From a virus (Duplodnaviria; Heunggongvirae; Uroviricota; Caudoviricetes): a DNA stretch of 64,000 nucleotides. Positions 15,905-52,945 of the stretch are shown here, in pieces. Every line of letters begins with the position of its first letter. Position 1 is the stretch's first letter. The translations under genes were made by a program, and so were the position numbers. The notes beneath the pieces are model-generated. The model was not told the DNA's origin. It saw only the letters and a program-made list of their open reading frames with translations, and did not search any database. Location of the stretch: positions 42,581-106,580 of the IMG/VR virus record IMGVR_UViG_3300012344_000014. The stretch is one strand, 5' to 3'.

Positions 15905-17527
15905 TCATAAGGAAACATTCTATTGGTCGAGCTTCCCGGCGAACTTGTAGTAAATTTCTATTTTCTGCGTTGGTTTGCCATTCTGGTCACAGCGTCTATC
16001 GTGGACTACGATTTTGTCGATCAGCGCATTGAGCATCGGGATAGTCAGTTTGGTTGGATGGGTGTAACGTTTGACCATGTTAGCCCATTCGTTAAGACCT
16101 CTTTGGGTTTCGTCGGTAGCTCGTTGTGCTTCTTCGGCGGCAGCGATGAATTCTTGAAGGGCGGTTTGCTCGTCTTGGTATTTTTTGAGCAGCGTCGAGA
16201 AATTGTTCGGAGTGATGTTTCCTTCGGCGCGATCCTCATAGAGTGAGGCGAGCATCCCGTCTATTTTTCGTAGACGCCGCTTTTTATCATCAAGCTTCGC
16301 TTGCTCCTTGTCCCCACTAGACTGAGTTGCTTTGCGCGAAGAATTCATAATCTCCTGGGCAAAATCTATTTCGTTCCCAGCGAGTGTCGAGGTCCAATAC
16401 TGTATCCGTGATAGCACATAATTGTAGAGGGTAGACTGCCTTATGTAATGCGCGGTGCAGTGTTCTTTACCGAATTCCGAATATTGCCGGCAGACGTAGG
16501 CTTTATCGTCGGGAGCATAGCAGGGACGGGCTTTCAACGCTTTCCCGCAGGTTGAACATTTTAGCAGACCGGCGAAAAGCTGGGGCGTCCCATCCCCGCA
16601 GGAACGACGCCGCCGTGAAATATTTTCCTGAACCCGCTCGAATGTCTCGCGCGATATAAGAGGCGGATGGGTATTTTCTACCCGGTAAAACTCATCAGCG
16701 GAGTTGTGAATTCGTTTTTTGCTTTTGTACGAAATCTTTTGCCTGCGGTAATGAATCGTATTTCCAATGTATGTTTCATCCATCAGTATGGAACGCACGG
16801 CGGAGCTTTGCCAGAAGCTTTTCTTCTCTTCGGCGGCGTTCTCATAGTATTGCGAATACGCGCCGTAGCGGCTATAGCCAACCCAGCCCGGGGTAGGGAC
16901 TTTGGACGTCCTCAGATACCTTGCGATTACATTGTAGCCGTTTCCTTCCAGCGCAAGCGCGTATATCTTTTCGATGATCCAGCGGGTGTCTTCGTCGATG
17001 AGGAGTTTGCCTTTTTCTTTCGGACTCCATATATAACCGAGCGGCGGTGTGGGGCCTAGGCGTTCGCCTTTTTCATATTTCGCTTTTAGCGCGGCCTTTA
17101 CTTTCCGGCTGGTGTCTTTGGCGTACCACTCGTTGAAGAGGTTCTTAAAAGGGGAGAAGTCGCTCATACCTTTCTCGGAGTCTTCGCCGTCGTTTACCGC
17201 CACATAGCGGACGCGCTTCTCAGGGAACACGTATTCCAAGTAGCGATCCACCTGAATGTGTTCGCGCCCCAACCGGGAGAGGTCTTTTGTGATAACGCAA
17301 TTCAACGCGCCTTTGTCAATGTCCGCCATCATACGTTGAAACGCCGGTCGGTCAAAATTTGTACCAGACCATCCATCGTCGACGTATTCATCATAAATCG
17401 CAATGTTGTTGTCTTCGCAATATTGATGAAGAATCCGGCGCTGCGTTTCAATGCTGCCGCTGTCGCCCGGCTCTCCGTCATCGTTGCTTAGCCGCATGTA
17501 AAGAGCGGCTACCCAGGGTTGTTTCAT
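15905..17527 (-). CDS. large serine recombinase (integrase)
   Basis: Resolvase-type N-terminus (ALYMRLSNDDG...SIETQR), recombinase and zinc-ribbon regions and a C-terminal coiled coil. AAGGAGG RBS before ATG 17527. The frame meets TAG at 15920-22, then TGA at 15905-07. Confidence 0.9.
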
Positions 17528-17594
17528 TCCCATCCTCCTTTCGATAGAGAAACAACCCACATTTGCATGCGGGTTGATTATAGCATAAGTGGAA

Positions 17595-17756
17595 TTAAGA
17601 CGCAATTTTAAGATTGCGAAGGATGAATTCTTTGAAGAGGTCGGCGAATGGTTGGCCGTCCGCAGCGAAATGTTCTGTTATAAGAATTTTCACTTTGCCG
17701 GCGTCAAAGCATTTTTGTTCAGTCAATAGTATATTCTTCTCTGCGATTCCGAACAT
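17595..17756 (-). CDS. small hypothetical protein upstream of the recombinase
   Basis: AAAGGAG RBS then ATG 17756; 53 codons (MFGIAEKNILLTEQKCFDAGKVKILITEHF...) ending in TAA 17595-97. Below the track length cutoff. Confidence 0.4.
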   Translation of the reverse strand: MFGIAEKNILLTEQKCFDAGKVKILITEHFAADGQPFADLFKEFILRNLKIAS

Positions 17757-18648: not shown

Positions 18649-19080
18649 TTAATTATATTTCATTTTTTGAAGAAGGCTTCTGTATAGGGGTTCCAGCTGC
18701 GGTGAGGACGCTTTGAATTTTTTCTGTTCGCAATTATGCGTCTTACCGGCTTTATAAAAACCATGACCGACTTCATGATACCGAGAGCGGTCCATATAGG
18801 CATATTCCATTTCAATATCCGGAAGCTGCTTTGTAATGCCTTTATAAAGCATAAAGGGCGGCATATAAACCGTTTTGAAGGCAAGCAGCCGCTCATCATT
18901 AAACCCTGGATCGAATGTAACGGGAGATTTCTCCTTCACGCCGGTTTCAGGAATTGCGGGATGCTGTTTAAGATAAGCGCCGCTGGGCTTAAATTTAACG
19001 ACGCCTTTCTTGCCGCACAGTTTCAGGACGGCTTCATCGAGCTGCTCTTTTGTGCCGGTGATGCGCAGATAGTTTTCCAT
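18649..19080 (-). CDS. hypothetical protein
   Basis: 143-aa ORF with a TAATG-type junction to the upstream gene. Confidence 0.55.
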   Translation of the reverse strand: MENYLRITGTKEQLDEAVLKLCGKKGVVKFKPSGAYLKQHPAIPETGVKEKSPVTFDPGFNDERLLAFKTVYMPPFMLYKGITKQLPDIEMEYAYMDRSRYHEVGHGFYKAGKTHNCEQKKFKASSPQLEPLYRSLLQKMKYN

Positions 19081-19397
19081 TAAACCTTATCCTCCTTCAT
19101 GTTTTCAAGCAGCAGGTTATACAGATCGCGTGTGGTGGCGAGCGGAATGTCTTTGTCCCCGTCCGTTATCATGCCAGGTTTATATCGCCGGCCGAAGTTA
19201 AGCTCCCAACAGAAGTAGCCGGTCCAGTCGTTTTCTTTATCTTTCATAATAATTTCCAGCAGGTTTACAATGGGATCGTCCAGCTGGCACAGTTCAGGAA
19301 GGCGTATGGCGTCGTCTGTTGCATCCGAAACCTTTTCGCAGAAGTCGTTCCATTCCATCAATCGGTGCAGAATTTCATCGAATAAGTCAAATGTCAT
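19080..19397 (-). CDS. hypothetical protein
   Basis: 105-aa acidic ORF. Confidence 0.55.
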   Translation of the reverse strand: MTFDLFDEILHRLMEWNDFCEKVSDATDDAIRLPELCQLDDPIVNLLEIIMKDKENDWTGYFCWELNFGRRYKPGMITDGDKDIPLATTRDLYNLLLENMKEDKV

Positions 19398-19410
19398 TGT
19401 GTTCTCCTTA

Positions 19411-19419
19411 TGATATAAT
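19411..19419 (+). promoter_or_regulatory. extended -10 promoter (TGATATAAT)
   Basis: Perfect TGnTATAAT located 10 nt before the 5' arm of the 19429-19740 element. Confidence 0.55.
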
Positions 19420-19428
19420 TGTGTCGGC

Positions 19429-19740
19429 GGGGAGAGGAGCGGAGGCGATCGCGTTTACATAGCCGCACCTGATGCATCGGGATGCGTAGCGCTATGTGAA
19501 AGGAGCGATGTGCCAATGGAACATGTTTGTGACGTTATGATCGAACTGTTTCTTGAGTACGTCGTCAAAAAGGTGATCTCATAGATGAAAACCTGGCTGA
19601 CGGGGCAACTCGAAAAGGCCAGGAAAAACAAACCTGAGCCTAAGTACACTATTTGTACTTGGGAGCAGCATTGCCGGTAATAGAAACCGGCGGGGTTAAC
19701 GCGATCGCCCCTTAATATTGCTGTACCGCTCCATCTCCCC
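19429..19740 (+). other. stem-closed + strand cassette (structured transcript enclosing a small ORF)
   Basis: The 5' arm GGGGAGAGGAGCGGAGGCGATCGCGTT (19429-55) is complementary to AACGCGATCGCC...CCGCTCC.TCTCCCC (19698-19740), giving helices of 12+7+7 bp. Confidence 0.45.
19516..19680 (+). CDS. small ORF inside the stem-closed cassette (in-frame TAG 19582-19584)
   Basis: AAAGGAG RBS 10 nt before ATG 19516; 54 codons if TAG is read through, ending TAA-TAG. Alternatively a separate ORF from ATG 19585 with its own GGTGA RBS. Confidence 0.3.
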
Positions 19741-19775
19741 GTTCACAAAAGAAAACATTGCAGTCTGCCGCGTGT

Positions 19776-19786
19776 TTGTGTATAAT
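19776..19786 (+). promoter_or_regulatory. candidate -10 promoter (TATAAT) for HicA-like gene 1
   Basis: TTGTGTATAAT lies 20 nt upstream of ATG 19807. Confidence 0.4.
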
Positions 19787-19806
19787 AGCCACAGGAGGTG
19801 GCTTCA

Positions 19807-20019
19807 ATGCATAAGCCGTTAGGTAGCAAAGAGGTTATCTCGATACTCGAAAAGTAGCAGTGGCGCAAGCTCAAAAACCGTGGTAAGGGAAGCCATACGG
19901 TTCTTGAGAACCCTGAGAACGGGCTCCACGTTACGGTACCCCGCAGCAAAGAACTCCCAGCGGGAACCTAGAAGAGTATCGGGCGGCAAACCGGTGTGAA
20001 TTTTGATGATCACCGGTGA
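19807..20019 (+). CDS. hicA: HicA-like mRNA-interferase toxin, copy 1 (in-frame TAGs at 19855 and 19969)
   Basis: AGGAGGTG RBS. The sequence ...EVISILEK-TAG-QWRKLKNRGKGSHTVLENP..HVTVPRSKELPAGT-TAG-KSIGRQTGV matches the HicA pattern (GSH ... VP ... GT.xSI.xQxG) only if both TAGs are read through. Confidence 0.65.
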
Positions 20020-20032
20020 GCGACCTCGCTTC

Positions 20033-20070
20033 AAAATGGACGGCCTTCTACTGGGCATGTCCATTTTTGT
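20033..20070 (+). terminator. hairpin plus T-run after HicA-like gene 1
   Basis: ATGGAC pairs with GTCCAT, with an inner GCC/GGC pairing, followed by TTTTTG. Confidence 0.4.
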
Positions 20071-20102
20071 TTGTAAACGGCAGACCGCAATGATGGGGTG
20101 GG

Positions 20103-20720
20103 TTAAATAATTTCGTCCATTGTTTTCACAATGATGTCGCAGACTCCGTGCTCAAGGCAAAAAACGGAATCCAGTTCCCAGTCATTGTTGCGCTTTTTAT
20201 TCAGCAGCTTAGCAGGAATGTTGGTCTTCTTGAGGATATGTTCCTTCATGGCTTTTAGGGAACTTTTGTAGCTGTCGGCCGCGTCGAACACCTTGGTGCT
20301 GTCGCCGGAAAGGGAGGCGCTGCCCTCGTGGATTACAACGCGAGCGCGGGGAAGCATGAAACGCTTATGACCGCTGAGGAAGATGATACCAGCCGCTGAA
20401 GCGCACACGCCCATGTTAACCGTATAAACCGGCGTCACAGAGGATTCGATTGTATCAATGAAAGACCACATCATATCGGCGTCGCCGCCGTAATTCATCA
20501 GATACAGCCAGATCGGTTTGCGCTCATTGACCGGCTTGCCCGCGTCTTCAATGTTCCAGCGGAGGATCAGCCGCTCATACTCGAGCATGTTGATATCGAC
20601 TTCGCCGTCGAGCCAGAGTTTGCGCTCTTTTTCCAGCTTGTAATAGGATACCAGTTCAGGATCTGGCAACTGATAATTGCCAACGTTATCAGAAAGAATA
20701 GGAAGTACAAGTCCGTCCAT
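20103..20720 (-). CDS. ClpP-family serine protease
   Basis: 205 aa; IWLYLMNYGGD...VNMGVCASAAGIIFLSG...RVVIHEGS fits the ClpP/S14 Ser-His arrangement. Confidence 0.75.
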   Translation of the reverse strand: MDGLVLPILSDNVGNYQLPDPELVSYYKLEKERKLWLDGEVDINMLEYERLILRWNIEDAGKPVNERKPIWLYLMNYGGDADMMWSFIDTIESSVTPVYTVNMGVCASAAGIIFLSGHKRFMLPRARVVIHEGSASLSGDSTKVFDAADSYKSSLKAMKEHILKKTNIPAKLLNKKRNNDWELDSVFCLEHGVCDIIVKTMDEII

Positions 20721-21442: not shown

Positions 21443-21493
21443 ACCGTATCATCACCTTTGCTTTTAATGGTTGTATATTGTCGCCCCGTGCCG

Positions 21494-21499
21494 TATAAT
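21494..21499 (+). promoter_or_regulatory. candidate promoter for HicA-like gene 2 (TTGTAT-N17-TATAAT)
   Basis: -35 TTGTAT (21471-76), 17-nt spacer, TATAAT (21494-99). An alternative -10, TATATT, lies at 21474-79. Confidence 0.4.
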
Positions 21500-21518
21500 G
21501 AGTGCGGAGGTGATTTTC

Positions 21519-21734
21519 TTGAAGAAGAACATATCTTCTCGGGAAGTTATCTCAATACTCAAAGAGCACGGATTCGTAGAAGACAAACGCCGGAGGACGG
21601 GCGGAGACACTATCTTTGTTAAACAGGGCTAGACGTCACACGTAAAAGTCCCCACAGGCCGGGAGTCGATACGAATCGGTACTTAGGTTAGTATCGAGAA
21701 ACAGTCCGGATTGCCCATTCGGTGTTAGCTGTAA
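21519..21734 (+). CDS. hicA: HicA-like protein, copy 2, divergent (in-frame TAGs at 21630, 21684 and 21726)
   Basis: GGAGGTG RBS then TTG 21519. REVISILKEHGF... and ...VKVPTGRESIRIGT-TAG-VSIEKQSGL are paralogous to copy 1, with TAG at the same GT-TAG-xSI position. GSH is replaced by GGD. TAA lies at 21732. Confidence 0.5.
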
Positions 21735-21790
21735 TGGGCTCCGGGCGGCTTCCGCACTCATTGCACGGCGCAGGCCGGCAATATGCGAAG

Positions 21791-27082: not shown

Positions 27083-27122
27083 TCATATAATAAAGGGAAC
27101 ATTTTCATGCCCCCTTTTTCAC
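27083..27122 (-). promoter_or_regulatory. conserved intergenic element, copy 1 (candidate phage-specific promoter)
   Basis: The - strand reads TGAAAAAGGGGGCATGAAAATGTTCCCTTTATTATATGAAAGGAG, just upstream of the nrdH-like/nrdD/nrdG operon. Near-identical copies lie at 32556 and 51774. Confidence 0.5.
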
Positions 27123-27628
27123 ATTTGAAAAATTTTATTTTGAATAAGCCACGCGACGCCTACCGCAACCGCATCAGATTCGTCGTCGCAGGCGTAACGC
27201 TGAGGGCCGACATAATCCTCAAGCATCTCGGCCACGCGGTCTTTCTCCGCATTGGCGTCGCCGGTGACGATGCGCTTGGTCATGCGAGGATCGATCTCTT
27301 CAAACTCTCTGCCTGTCAAATGCCAGGCATAAAGATCGGCCACGCCGACAACCTTATGCAAAACCCCGATGGTCTTCATCTGATAGCGGCCGGGGTAAAT
27401 CGCTTTCTCTCGAACCAATATGGCGTCCGGATAAGCGGTCATATATCGCTTCTATTCGCGCGCAATCTCCAGAAGCATCTGGCCATGCGTTTTCTTGCGG
27501 GCATACTTGTTGTTGACATTGCTGAGCTCGCGCACGGTGATCGTATTATTCTCACAATGAAGCAGCGCAAAGCCGGGGCGATGGAGCGAGAGATCGCAGG
27601 CGAAGACATCGACGGCGGTTTCAGGCAC
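27119..27628 (-). CDS. ruvC: RuvC-like Holliday junction resolvase (read through in-frame TAG 27452-27454)
   Basis: GAGGGGA RBS then GTG 27628. The N-terminal half (VDVFACDLSL...LLEIARE) and C-terminal half (YPDAILVRE...TGDANAEKDRV...DESDAVAVGVAW) are in one frame, separated only by TAG. Confidence 0.75.
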
Positions 27629-51843: not shown

Positions 51844-52740
51844 TCACCACGGCAGCGTATTCACCGCCCTCGCGAGCTGCTCGGGATGGGAGTGATCATA
51901 CCGGTTGGTAACGCGCAGAGACGAGTGGTTCGCGCAGTCCCTCGCCACGCCGGCGCCGTTACGCTTTTCAACCTCGGAGATGAAAGTATGCCGCAGGCAA
52001 TGAGGCCCTGTGGCAAGGCCGAGCTGTTTCTGCTTGAATGCGAGCGCGCCGTAAACGGTTTTGCGGTTCATCGGCTGACCGTGCGTGGAGAGGAAGAGCG
52101 GGCGGGAATGATCGTCCGCGTCGGGGCGGGTTTGAAGATATGCGTCGAGCACGTCGTAGAACGAATCCTTAACGTAAACATCCTCCCAGTTGCCGCCCTT
52201 GCGTTTGCAGTAAATTTTGCCGCGTTCGCCGTCGAGCACGTCGCCGATGGTCAGGGCGCACAGCTCGCTCACGCGCATGCCGGATTCCAGAATAAGCGTG
52301 CAGATGGCGCGATCGCGCAGTTTATTGCGGCCGGGCATATCGCCGAGCAGTTTGCGCGTCTGCTGGACGGTCATGTATTTCTCCTTGCGCTCCCATTTGG
52401 GGACGGCCTTCTCATTGGGGAGCTTATGCGTGGTCAGCACGCCGCTGAGATCTTCCGCCGTGGCCTGCGCGACCTTCCACGCCCAGCGGAGGAACGGGTT
52501 GAGCATGCAGACGTAATTATTGCGCGTCGTCATCTTGCAACGAACGGACAGATGGTTATAATACGCATCCAGCACGGACGGCGTAAGGCCGGAGAGTTCG
52601 TTCTCCCCGACCTGCACGCCGTAGTTCCGCTCCAGCTGCCGGAGGATGCGGTTCAAGACCTCGGCGCAATGCGCCGCTGAAACATCCGAAGCGCCGCCCG
52701 CCTTATAGCTTGCGGCGTAGCGTTCAACCAGCCTGTACAT
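51844..52740 (-). CDS. tyrosine recombinase (XerC/D-like)
   Basis: AAGGAGGG RBS then ATG 52740. Catalytic residues fall in LESGMRVSEL, HCLRHTF and RVTNRYDH. Confidence 0.85.
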   Translation of the reverse strand: MYRLVERYAASYKAGGASDVSAAHCAEVLNRILRQLERNYGVQVGENELSGLTPSVLDAYYNHLSVRCKMTTRNNYVCMLNPFLRWAWKVAQATAEDLSGVLTTHKLPNEKAVPKWERKEKYMTVQQTRKLLGDMPGRNKLRDRAICTLILESGMRVSELCALTIGDVLDGERGKIYCKRKGGNWEDVYVKDSFYDVLDAYLQTRPDADDHSRPLFLSTHGQPMNRKTVYGALAFKQKQLGLATGPHCLRHTFISEVEKRNGAGVARDCANHSSLRVTNRYDHSHPEQLARAVNTLPW

Positions 52741-52945
52741 TTCCCTGTTCCCTCCTTCTGCGCGCGGCGACGATCTGCTTATATTCCTCAACGACCTCAT
52801 TCAGCCGGGGCGTGCGCAGATAGCGCCAGTAACGCGTGCCGAACTCATCCTTATAGGAATTCTCATAGCGGATATCGTGGACGTGGATGAAGGTTTCGAG
52901 GGCGAAGTTGTTCGTTTCAAAGATTTCGGGATTCTGATTCATCAT
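52724..52945 (-). CDS. hypothetical protein
   Basis: 73-aa ORF. Confidence 0.45.
   Translation of the reverse strand: MMNQNPEIFETNNFALETFIHVHDIRYENSYKDEFGTRYWRYLRTPRLNEVVEEYKQIVAARRRREQGNVQAG

What the first reader, a model, noticed from the sequence alone, without database searches (positions are those of the whole stretch)
19411..19740. Promoter-driven, stem-closed 310-nt element of unknown function next to HicA-like gene 1
A perfect TGATATAAT (19411-19) is followed by an element whose first 27 nt pair with its last 43 nt, including a 12-bp GGCGATCGCGTT/AACGCGATCGCC helix. The interior has an AAAGGAG RBS and a 54-codon frame (19516-19680) interrupted by TAG 19582. Alternatively it holds two mini-ORFs of 22 and 31 codons, the second with its own GGTGA RBS. 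It sits directly upstream of HicA-like gene 1, so it could be its regulator or antitoxin (protein or RNA), or an independent structured RNA. I could not match it to any RNA family.
Basis: partly seen in the sequence, partly recalled or inferred. Interest (0 to 1): 0.55.

Follow-up and report, generated by a model that had tools for sequence, protein, structure and literature searches.

The report
Stem-closed phage mRNA with amber-interrupted mini-gene
The flagged element is a real, conserved, tightly folded prophage RNA that carries a 54-codon gene with an in-frame UAG stop codon. It is one of at least seven genes in this prophage that need UAG read as an amino acid, yet no suppressor tRNA is found in about 74 kb of the phage.

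Summary
A near-consensus extended -10 promoter (19411-19419) is followed by a ~320-nt plus-strand RNA whose first bases pair with its last. The fold is far stronger than chance (z = -9.2). It is kept in five diverged phage lineages, one of which has completely different arm sequences.

The interior is one 54-codon gene, not two mini-ORFs. Three alleles keep the same start, stop, length and the UAG at codon 23. They show a coding substitution pattern (dN/dS about 0.26-0.29).

The UAG is not a defect. Both HicA genes, two small membrane-protein genes, a RuvC-like gene and a PAPS-reductase gene also carry in-frame TAG, and never TAA or TGA. TAG ends only 4 of 57 called phage genes. No tRNA was found in about 74 kb.

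The element is not HicA's partner. One lineage has HicA1 without the element, and another keeps the element beside a decayed HicA1.

Best reading: a stable, translation-restrained phage accessory mRNA, built like a type I toxin mRNA, for an orphan basic peptide made only under amber suppression. Function and suppressor source are unknown.

The parts
19391..19419 (+). Sigma-A/sigma-70-type promoter: ATGTCA, 17-nt spacer, TATAAT with TG extension (TGATATAAT at 19411-19419).
   Evidence: 10/12 plus TG. Invariant in four lineages. Kept as TGTGATATAAT in the diverged L032.
19426..19442 (+). P1 5' arm (outer closing helix). It starts at the predicted transcription start, about 7 nt after the -10 box.
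   Evidence: Compensatory G:C to A:U changes and a shifted bulge in L008 and L010. Completely different but still pairing sequence in L032.
19444..19455 (+). P2 5' arm, GGCGATCGCGTT (the 12-bp helix).
   Evidence: One G.U in L008. Replaced by ACACGUCGC/GCGACGUGU in L032.
19455..19499 (+). 5' hairpin stacked on P2 (helices 3 and 4 of the consensus).
   Evidence: L032 has a hairpin of unrelated sequence at the same place.
19499..19505 (+). Shine-Dalgarno AAAGGAG. Its core lies in a 5-nt linker between helices, and the start codon lies inside a helix.
   Evidence: Invariant in four lineages.
19516..19680 (+). 54-codon ORF with in-frame TAG at 19582-19584 (codon 23) and TAA stop at 19678-19680. 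Product: MEHVCDVMIELFLEYVVKKVIS[UAG]MKTWLTGQLEKARKNKPEPKYTICTWEQHCR.
   Evidence: Three alleles of identical length. dN/dS 0.26-0.29 against L032. Differences by codon position 21/12/25.
19634..19668 (+). Interior hairpin (helix 11) inside the coding region, with four compensatory pairs between alleles.
19698..19709 (+). P2 3' arm, AACGCGATCGCC.
19726..19743 (+). P1 3' arm, CCGCTCCATCTCCCCGTT. No U-tract follows, so transcription probably continues or the RNA is processed.
19756..20092 (+). Neighbouring independent module. HicA-like gene 1 is 19807-20019, with in-frame TAG at 19855 and 19969. It has its own promoter (TTGCAG 19758-19763, TGTGTATAAT 19777-19786). It is closed by its own long-range helix, 19756-19770 with 20078-20092.
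   Evidence: (PF07927, 5e-14, profile 1-58 of 58).

Best explanation
The element is a self-contained accessory ('moron'-type) transcription unit of a temperate phage of Clostridia. It lies antisense inside a spacer of a minus-strand phage operon.

A strong extended -10 promoter makes a plus-strand RNA of about 320 nt. Its very first nucleotides pair with its last ones (P1 plus P2, about 28 bp). The rest folds into a conserved set of hairpins. The RNA is an mRNA for a 54-residue orphan peptide with a hydrophobic or amphipathic N-terminal half and a basic, aromatic C-terminal tail. Codon 23 of that peptide is UAG.

In this phage UAG behaves as a conditional sense codon. The full peptide would therefore be made only when amber suppression is available. 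Otherwise translation stops after 22 residues.

The closed fold leaves no free 5' end, sets the SD core in a 5-nt linker and buries the start codon. It most likely keeps the message long-lived and poorly translated until it is opened or processed, as in type I toxin mRNAs.

Shown: the promoter motif, the fold and its covariation, conservation of the ORF with a coding signature, phage-wide in-frame TAG, and independence from HicA1.

Inferred: transcription from this promoter, read-through of UAG, the stabilising and translation-restraining role of the helix, and any toxic or lysis-related activity of the peptide.
For: Fold and closure:
- z = -9.2 for the plus strand. It folds better than the minus strand.
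- 98.4% of cells paired, 7 double-compensated pairs against 0-2 in slid controls, and many conserved G.U pairs that only the plus-strand RNA can form.
- L032 keeps P1, P2 and the 5' hairpin with unrelated sequences (z = -8.1).
- The closure duplex beats all 300 shuffles in 5 of 5 lineages.

Coding:
- Three alleles are 36-45% diverged in nucleotides. All keep the SD, the ATG, exactly 54 codons and the TAA.
- Their only internal stops are TAG. Codon 23 is TAG in all alleles, with extra TAGs at codon 34 (L004/L008) and codon 45 (L032).
- dN/dS is 0.26-0.29 and second codon positions vary least.

UAG as sense:
- Pfam domains span the in-frame TAGs in HicA1, HicA2, RuvC-like and PAPS_reduct.
- HicA2 has pN/pS 0.05-0.18 over the whole read-through frame.
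- HicA1 differences between its two TAGs are [4,0,10], [5,1,12] and [5,1,9] by codon position.
- TAG ends only 4 of 57 called phage genes.
- TAG alternates with the sense codons CAG, AAG and TGG in relatives.

Independence from HicA1: L034 and L010.

Precedents:
- Type I toxin mRNAs are highly stable and need end processing to unmask the SD (PMC5416894).
- Prophage-borne small toxins are silenced through RNase III in B. subtilis (PMC3531473).
- Recoded stop codons are concentrated in lysis and late genes of gut phages (bioRxiv 10.1101/2021.08.26.457843).
Against: - There are no expression data, so the transcription start, the 3' end and translation are all inferred.
- No suppressor tRNA or other RNA gene was found in about 74 kb of the phage, even at permissive thresholds. 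Who reads UAG is unknown.
- Between the two commonest alleles the coding signal is weak (dN/dS about 0.6, differences 22/16/22).
- Part of the amino-acid conservation coincides with RNA helices.
- The L008/L009 lineage has a 1-nt deletion that changes the C-terminal 17 residues.
- The window allele's N-terminal half is too charged for a membrane helix, and amphipathicity was not significant.
- The peptide has no homologue anywhere searched.
- No antisense promoter was found.
Confidence: 0.55

Rival explanations
1. It is a non-coding structured RNA and the ORF is incidental. The RNA could act as a regulatory RNA, an antisense partner of the minus-strand ClpP-to-105-aa operon spacer, or an RNase III processing module. 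RNase III excises rRNAs from comparable closing stems.
For: - The fold and its covariation are very strong, including inside the 'coding' part (helix 11).
- The flanks (about 91% identity) are far better conserved than the interior (about 63%).
- dN/dS is about 0.6-0.7 with flat codon-position differences between the two commonest alleles.
- Conserved residues YVV and KTWL coincide with helices 5, 8 and 9.
- The L008 lineage has a frameshift.
- The HicA1 and HicA2 modules are closed by similar helices, so closure is a property of the modules and not of this ORF.
Against: - Three alleles keep exactly 54 codons with no indel across a region that is 36-45% diverged.
- They keep the same SD, start and stop, and have no TAA or TGA in frame.
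- dN/dS is 0.26-0.29 and second positions vary least once L032 is included.
- No Rfam match.
Confidence: 0.22
2. It is the regulator or antitoxin (protein or RNA) of the adjacent HicA-like toxin 1.
For: It lies immediately upstream on the same strand, with no terminator between them. Both HicA genes lack a HicB partner. HicA has a dsRNA-binding-like fold, so a helix-rich RNA could in principle bind it (own knowledge, not tested).
Against: - L034 has an intact HicA1 with its promoter, both TAGs and its closing helix, but no element.
- HicA2 has no such element.
- L010 keeps the element intact while HicA1 has a 24-nt deletion and a 2-nt frameshift.
- ORF alleles are shuffled independently of HicA1 alleles.
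- There is no HicB-family match.
Confidence: 0.07
3. The arms are DNA-level inverted repeats, either an invertible cassette or a recombination or cruciform site. The pairing is kept by recombination between the arms and not by RNA function.
For: - All three modules are bracketed by inverted repeats.
- For HicA1 and HicA2 the 5' arm overlaps the module's own -35 or -10 box.
- In the HicA1 helix, wobbles and mismatches are split evenly between the strands (reading).
- A large serine recombinase lies 2 kb away.
Against: - For this element the arms begin at the predicted transcription start, contain bulges and conserved G.U pairs, and extend into a plus-strand-specific fold.
- Arm sequences are not conserved between lineages.
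- Every contig examined (window, L001-L010, L031-L034) has the same orientation.
Confidence: 0.06
4. The TAG-interrupted frames are decaying pseudogenes, and the element is a remnant.
For: L010 HicA1 and the L008 small ORF carry frameshifts. No suppressor tRNA was found.
Against: - The only interruptions are TAG, at about ten sites in seven genes, never TAA or TGA.
- The same TAG positions are kept across lineages whose ClpP is only 77-80% identical.
- Purifying selection acts downstream of the TAGs.
Confidence: 0.05

Closest known systems
Type I toxin mRNAs (hok/Sok, aapA1/IsoA1; prophage-borne txpA/RatA, yonT/SR6, bsrG/SR4 of Bacillus subtilis; type I modules of Clostridia)
   Same: Both have a small ORF of under 60 codons on a strongly folded, presumably stable mRNA. 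In both, the ends interact and the translation start is restrained. Both are often carried by prophages, and both lie opposite to transcription that could supply antisense RNA (PMC5416894, PMC3531473, PMC6563280).
   Different: No dedicated antisense sRNA or promoter was found. The peptide is not clearly a transmembrane toxin, because the window allele is charged. Toxicity is untested. An in-frame UAG gates the ORF, which is not a feature of any described type I system as far as I know.
Stop-codon-recoded (TAG-reassigned, 'code 15') gut phages and prophages (Borges et al., bioRxiv 10.1101/2021.08.26.457843)
   Same: In-frame TAG occurs in conserved genes of a phage whose host uses the standard code. 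TAG is depleted as a stop. The TAGs are concentrated in toxic or lysis-like genes. The hosts are Clostridia and Oscillospiraceae, in the same kind of gut samples.
   Different: Recoding here is sparse: about ten TAGs in seven or more genes, while large structural genes are uninterrupted. No suppressor tRNA, release factor or synthetase gene was seen in about 74 kb. Most TAG-bearing genes are antisense accessory genes with their own promoters.
HicAB type II toxin-antitoxin system
   Same: The element sits next to a full-length HicA_toxin domain gene (PF07927). Closest solved relatives are 4c26 and 6g26.
   Different: There is no HicB. The small ORF is 54 residues with no HicB similarity. The element and HicA occur independently of each other.
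Processing stalks around rRNAs and RNase III sites between phage T7 cistrons (own knowledge)
   Same: Sequences flanking a whole functional unit pair to form a long helix that encloses it.
   Different: Cleavage here is untested. The helix starts at the predicted transcription start, not inside a long precursor.

Membership tests
Type I toxin-antitoxin (toxin mRNA) | Small (<60 aa) hydrophobic, membrane-active toxic peptide | tested here: inconclusive
   The peptide is 54 aa. The L004 and L032 alleles have a hydrophobic, small-residue-rich N-terminal 22 residues, but the window allele has D, E, E, K, K there. The hydrophobic moment is not above shuffles. Toxicity cannot be tested here.
Type I toxin-antitoxin (toxin mRNA) | Antisense RNA antitoxin encoded in cis or nearby | tested here: not met
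   No promoter-like site lies on the minus strand in 19398-19800 (reading). The only candidate antisense is read-through of the phage operon.
Type I toxin-antitoxin (toxin mRNA) | Stable, highly folded mRNA with end-to-end pairing and a restrained translation start | tested here: met
   z = -9.2. P1 and P2 close the RNA from its first nucleotide. The start codon lies in a helix and the SD core in a 5-nt linker. Stability itself was not measured.
HicAB (HicB antitoxin) | HicB fold or family match in the partner protein | tested here: not met
   No Pfam, NCBIfam, PHROGs or PADLOC match for the peptide or for the flanking 105-, 143- and 90-aa proteins.
HicAB (HicB antitoxin) | Obligate co-occurrence with HicA | tested here: not met
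   L034 has HicA1 without the element. HicA2 is solitary. L010 has the element beside a decayed HicA1.
TAG-recoded phage gene | In-frame TAG inside conserved coding sequence under purifying selection | tested here: met
   Pfam domains span the TAGs in four genes. Selection acts downstream of the TAGs. For the small ORF itself: three alleles, dN/dS 0.26-0.29.
TAG-recoded phage gene | Phage-encoded suppressor tRNA(CUA) or other code-change machinery | tested here: not met
   ARAGORN and Rfam (gathering, and E up to 0.5) find no tRNA in the window plus 10 kb beyond it. The right end of the phage was not reached.
TAG-recoded phage gene | TAG avoided as a true stop | tested here: met
   TAG ends 4 of 57 called genes. 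One of those continues in frame into the next called gene.
Any Rfam family (including large phage-associated ncRNAs such as GOLLD and ROOL) | Covariance-model match | tested here: not met
   No hit at gathering score. Nothing relevant at E up to 10 locally or up to 0.5 window-wide.
Invertible DNA segment (inverton) | Both orientations present in populations; conserved recombinase-binding repeats | tested here: not met
   One orientation in all contigs examined. Arm sequences differ completely in L032. Read-level data are not available.

The most novel reading that the evidence does not exclude
The prophage keeps a battery of antitoxin-less killers silent with in-frame UAG codons on stable, stem-closed mRNAs. 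The battery comprises this peptide, two solitary HicA RNases and two small membrane proteins. It fires only when an amber suppressor appears. That trigger could be the phage's own code switch at lysis, or the suppressor tRNA of a superinfecting TAG-recoded phage. In the second case it would be a 'genetic-code sensor' form of abortive infection. TAG-recoded phages of Oscillospiraceae occur in the same kind of gut samples.
Probability: 0.15. Interest if true: 0.9.

Novelty: new variant of a known kind. Interest (0 to 1): 0.62.

Why it matters
The finding gives a concrete, testable locus where stop-codon recoding, toxin control and RNA structure meet. A standard-looking temperate phage carries UAG inside a handful of potentially lethal accessory genes and two enzymes, with no suppressor tRNA in about 74 kb.

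If UAG gates these genes, sparse recoding is a regulatory device that coding-density screens would miss. It would also let solitary toxins such as HicA be carried without an antitoxin.

The end-to-end closing helices around three separate modules are kept by compensatory change. They point to a general way of packaging antisense accessory genes inside phage operons. Gene callers currently miss all of these genes or split them.

Tried and rejected
- GenBank phages (blastn, distant mode), IMG/VR (two protein scans and a DNA pattern) and GTDB genomes (a protein scan and a DNA pattern) gave nothing. The element is known only from metagenome contigs reached through neighbouring proteins.
- The first relatives found (L001-L003, L031) were 100% identical and uninformative.
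- Eighteen distant ClpP loci (54-64% identity) contain neither HicA nor the element.
- The peptide searched against 1.84 billion representative proteins returned only two repetitive, spurious hits.
- Two mini-ORFs: rejected.
- Cyanobacterial-type iterated palindrome: rejected.
- A hidden tRNA in the interior hairpin: rejected by reading, because the loop is not conserved and has no U33-CUA.
- A minus-strand 64-codon ORF (19455-19649): rejected. It has no SD and no conserved start, and it is the usual open shadow frame.
- Whole-window TAG recoding is not evident from ORF-length statistics. The recoding is sparse and was found only by looking for TAG-only interruptions.
- An amphipathic-helix test was not significant.
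- MAFFT misaligns the 5' part of L032, so its closure was checked by folding and duplex energy instead.

Full report
**Setting.** From about 15.9 kb onward the window is a temperate phage of a Clostridia-type host. A large serine recombinase lies at 15920-17605, next to host spoIID. Further on are DUF4406, ClpP-like, PhoH, SHMT and NrdD genes, almost all on the minus strand. The finding lies in the 705-nt spacer 19398-20102, between the ClpP-like gene (20103-20720) and a 105-aa gene (19080-19397). Its features are on the plus strand, antisense to the phage operon.

The sequence shows the following:
- TGATATAAT at 19411-19419, with ATGTCA 17 nt upstream. This is the best promoter-like site in the neighbourhood.
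- An outer helix, 19426-19442 with 19726-19743.
- The 12-bp helix, 19444-19455 with 19698-19709.
- AAAGGAG at 19499-19505, ATG at 19516, TAG at 19582 and TAA at 19678.

The plus-strand RNA folds at -147.3 kcal/mol, z = -9.2. The minus strand folds less well, at -120.9. GCGATCGC occurs at chance frequency. Rfam has nothing.

**Relatives.** No match exists in GenBank phages, IMG/VR or GTDB genomes. Metagenome contigs were reached through neighbouring proteins:
- Identical copies: L001-L003 and L031.
- Three close variants: L004-6, L008-9 and L010.
- Two more diverged lineages, whose ClpP is 80% and 77% identical: L032/L033 and L034.

**The RNA structure is under selection.**
- On the four close variants RNAalifold predicts 92 pairs in 12 helices. 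Of the cells, 98.4% are paired. Seven pairs have compensatory double changes, against 0-2 when partners are slid. One-sided changes are nearly all to G.U.
- Many G.U pairs are invariant, so the structured molecule is the plus-strand RNA.
- L032 is decisive. Its promoter is kept (TGTGATATAAT), but P1, P2 and the adjoining 5' hairpin have unrelated sequences. P1 is CGGAGGAGAA(A)GGCC/GGCCUUCUUCUCCG and P2 is ACACGUCGC/GCGACGUGU. They still form the same architecture (-120.5 kcal/mol, z = -8.1).
- The duplex between the first 36 and last 60 nt is -44.7 to -55.5 kcal/mol in all five lineages. That is better than any of 300 shuffles in each.
- P1 starts at the predicted transcription start, so the RNA would have no free 5' end.
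- The SD core sits in a 5-nt linker and the start codon sits in a helix.

**The interior is one gene.** Three alleles exist: window/L010, L004/L008 and L032. They differ at 36-45% of nucleotides, whereas the flanks are about 91% identical.
- All three keep the SD, the ATG, exactly 54 codons, the TAA, and TAG at codon 23.
- L004/L008 add a TAG at codon 34 (AAG in the window). L032 adds one at codon 45.
- No TAA or TGA occurs in frame, while the other plus-strand frames are full of stops.
- The ATG after the TAG is GCG or GCA in the other alleles, so the two-mini-ORF reading fails.
- With L032 included, dN/dS is 0.26-0.29 and second codon positions vary least (21/12/25). This also holds after the TAG.
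- Between the two commonest alleles the signal is weak (dN/dS about 0.6, differences 22/16/22).
- L008/L009 carry a 1-nt deletion that changes the C-terminal tail.
- Allele distribution disagrees with the flanks. L008 and L010 are sisters in the flanks but carry different ORF alleles, so the ORF core is exchanged by recombination.
- The peptide matches nothing in Pfam, PHROGs, PADLOC, NCBIfam or 1.84 billion representative proteins.

**The in-frame TAG is a phage-wide feature.**
- HicA1 (19807-20019) and HicA2 (21519-21731) match the whole HicA_toxin profile across two in-frame TAGs each. Their closest solved relatives are 4c26 and 6g26. One TAG sits at the same GT[x]xSI position in both genes.
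- These TAGs are conserved in all lineages, including L032-L034.
- HicA2 has pN/pS 0.05-0.18.
- HicA1 differences between its two TAGs fall mainly on third positions: [4,0,10], [5,1,12] and [5,1,9].
- TAG alternates with CAG (HicA1 in L008), AAG (small ORF) and TGG (HicA2 in L032).
- A scan for frames interrupted only by TAG found two paralogous small membrane-protein genes, 38176-38421 and 38548-38805, both plus strand.
- The same scan found two ordinary minus-strand genes whose Pfam domains span a TAG. They are RuvC-like (27119-27613) and PAPS_reduct (42202-43062).
- TAG ends only 4 of 57 called phage genes.
- Large structural genes are uninterrupted, so the recoding is sparse.
- No tRNA or any other Rfam RNA is found in the window or in 10 kb beyond it, even at permissive thresholds. 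The contigs end in low-complexity repeats before the phage's right end.
- The pattern resembles that described for TAG-recoded gut phages, including prophages of Oscillospiraceae. There recoded stops concentrate in lysis and late genes, and TAG depletion precedes recoding.

**Relation to HicA.** The element is not HicA1's partner.
- L034 has an intact HicA1 module but no element.
- HicA2 has no such neighbour.
- L010 keeps the element while its HicA1 has lost 24 nt and is frameshifted after the second TAG.

**A shared architecture.** HicA1 and HicA2 are each bracketed by a long-range helix with compensatory changes.
- HicA1: 19756-19770 with 20078-20092. L034 has three compensated pairs.
- HicA2: about 21481-21511 with 21748-21778.

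In these two modules the 5' arms overlap the module's own -35 or -10 box. In the HicA1 helix, wobbles and mismatches are split evenly between the strands. I therefore cannot say whether those helices act in plus-strand RNA, in the minus-strand operon RNA, or in DNA. For the element itself, the plus-strand RNA reading is well supported.

**Mechanism, committed.** The element is a promoter-driven, end-closed, stable but translation-restrained mRNA for a 54-residue orphan basic peptide. Completion of that peptide requires UAG suppression (confidence about 0.55).

It works like a type I toxin mRNA. Such mRNAs are stable and folded, and need processing to unmask the SD (PMC5416894). Prophage-borne examples are silenced by RNase III (PMC3531473). 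The element fails membership because no antisense antitoxin was found and toxicity is untested.

Rivals are a non-coding or antisense or processing RNA (0.22), a HicA regulator (0.07), DNA-level repeats (0.06) and pseudogene decay (0.05).

**Verdict.** The feature is real and conserved, and belongs to no known family. It is a new variant at the junction of two known kinds: structured small-toxin-like mRNAs and stop-codon-recoded phage genes. The unexplained source of amber suppression, and the clustering of UAG in antitoxin-less toxin-like genes, make it worth experimental follow-up.

Noticed in passing
window 19807-20019 and 21519-21731 (+): Two solitary HicA_toxin genes, each with two in-frame TAG codons. 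One TAG is at the same GT[TAG]xSI position in both genes. The TAGs are conserved in all lineages and the frames are under purifying selection. There is no HicB. In L008 the first TAG is followed by a second TAG where others have CAG. In L032 the first TAG of HicA2 is TGG.
   Followed up: yes
window 38176-38421 and 38548-38805 (+): Two tandem paralogous small multi-pass membrane-protein genes. They share 5' UTRs, have extended -10 promoters and terminators, and each carries in-frame TAG, one at an equivalent position. No family match. They lie next to a PG_binding/PASTA protein gene (37166-38071), so they may be holin-like.
   Followed up: partly
window 27119-27613 (-) and 42202-43062 (-): RuvC-like and PAPS-reductase-like phage genes, each split by a single in-frame TAG (at 27452-27454 and 42715-42717). 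The Pfam domains span the TAG.
   Followed up: partly
window 19756-19770/20078-20092 and about 21481-21511/21748-21778: Long-range helices with compensatory changes close the HicA1 and HicA2 modules. Their 5' arms overlap the modules' own -35 or -10 boxes. The HicA1 3' arm lies beyond a terminator-like hairpin (20035-20070). The strand, and whether the level is RNA or DNA, is unresolved.
   Followed up: partly
window 19516-19680 versus L004, L008, L010, L032: The ORF core exists as sharply diverged alleles. Their distribution among lineages conflicts with the flanks, and the 5' hairpin loop gives a third grouping. This indicates fine-scale recombination within the element.
   Followed up: partly
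L030 1-240 and 1000-1900 (beyond the window's right end): Contigs from two samples end at about the same place, in CCCTCC/CCTTCC low-complexity repeats. A gene-free stretch of about 900 nt follows the first gene. No tRNA or Rfam hit there.
   Followed up: partly
L030 1905-2081 and 2085-2306: Two called genes lie in the same frame, separated only by TAG plus one codon. This may be another read-through gene.
   Followed up: no
window 51844-52800 (-) and 52.9-55 kb: A tyrosine integrase lies inside the phage region, with RHH, GP88 and AbiEii genes beside it and Bro-N/ANT, DUF932 and AcrIC5-like genes further right. This could be a second element or a composite prophage. L010 has a tyrosine integrase in place of the serine recombinase at the spoIID-side junction.
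   Followed up: no
window 59814-59943 (-): Weak RsmY-like Rfam hit (25 bits against a gathering score of 57, E = 0.05). Probably chance.
   Followed up: no
window 15920-17605 (-): The serine recombinase ends in TAG, followed four codons later by TGA, so read-through would add only four residues.
   Followed up: no
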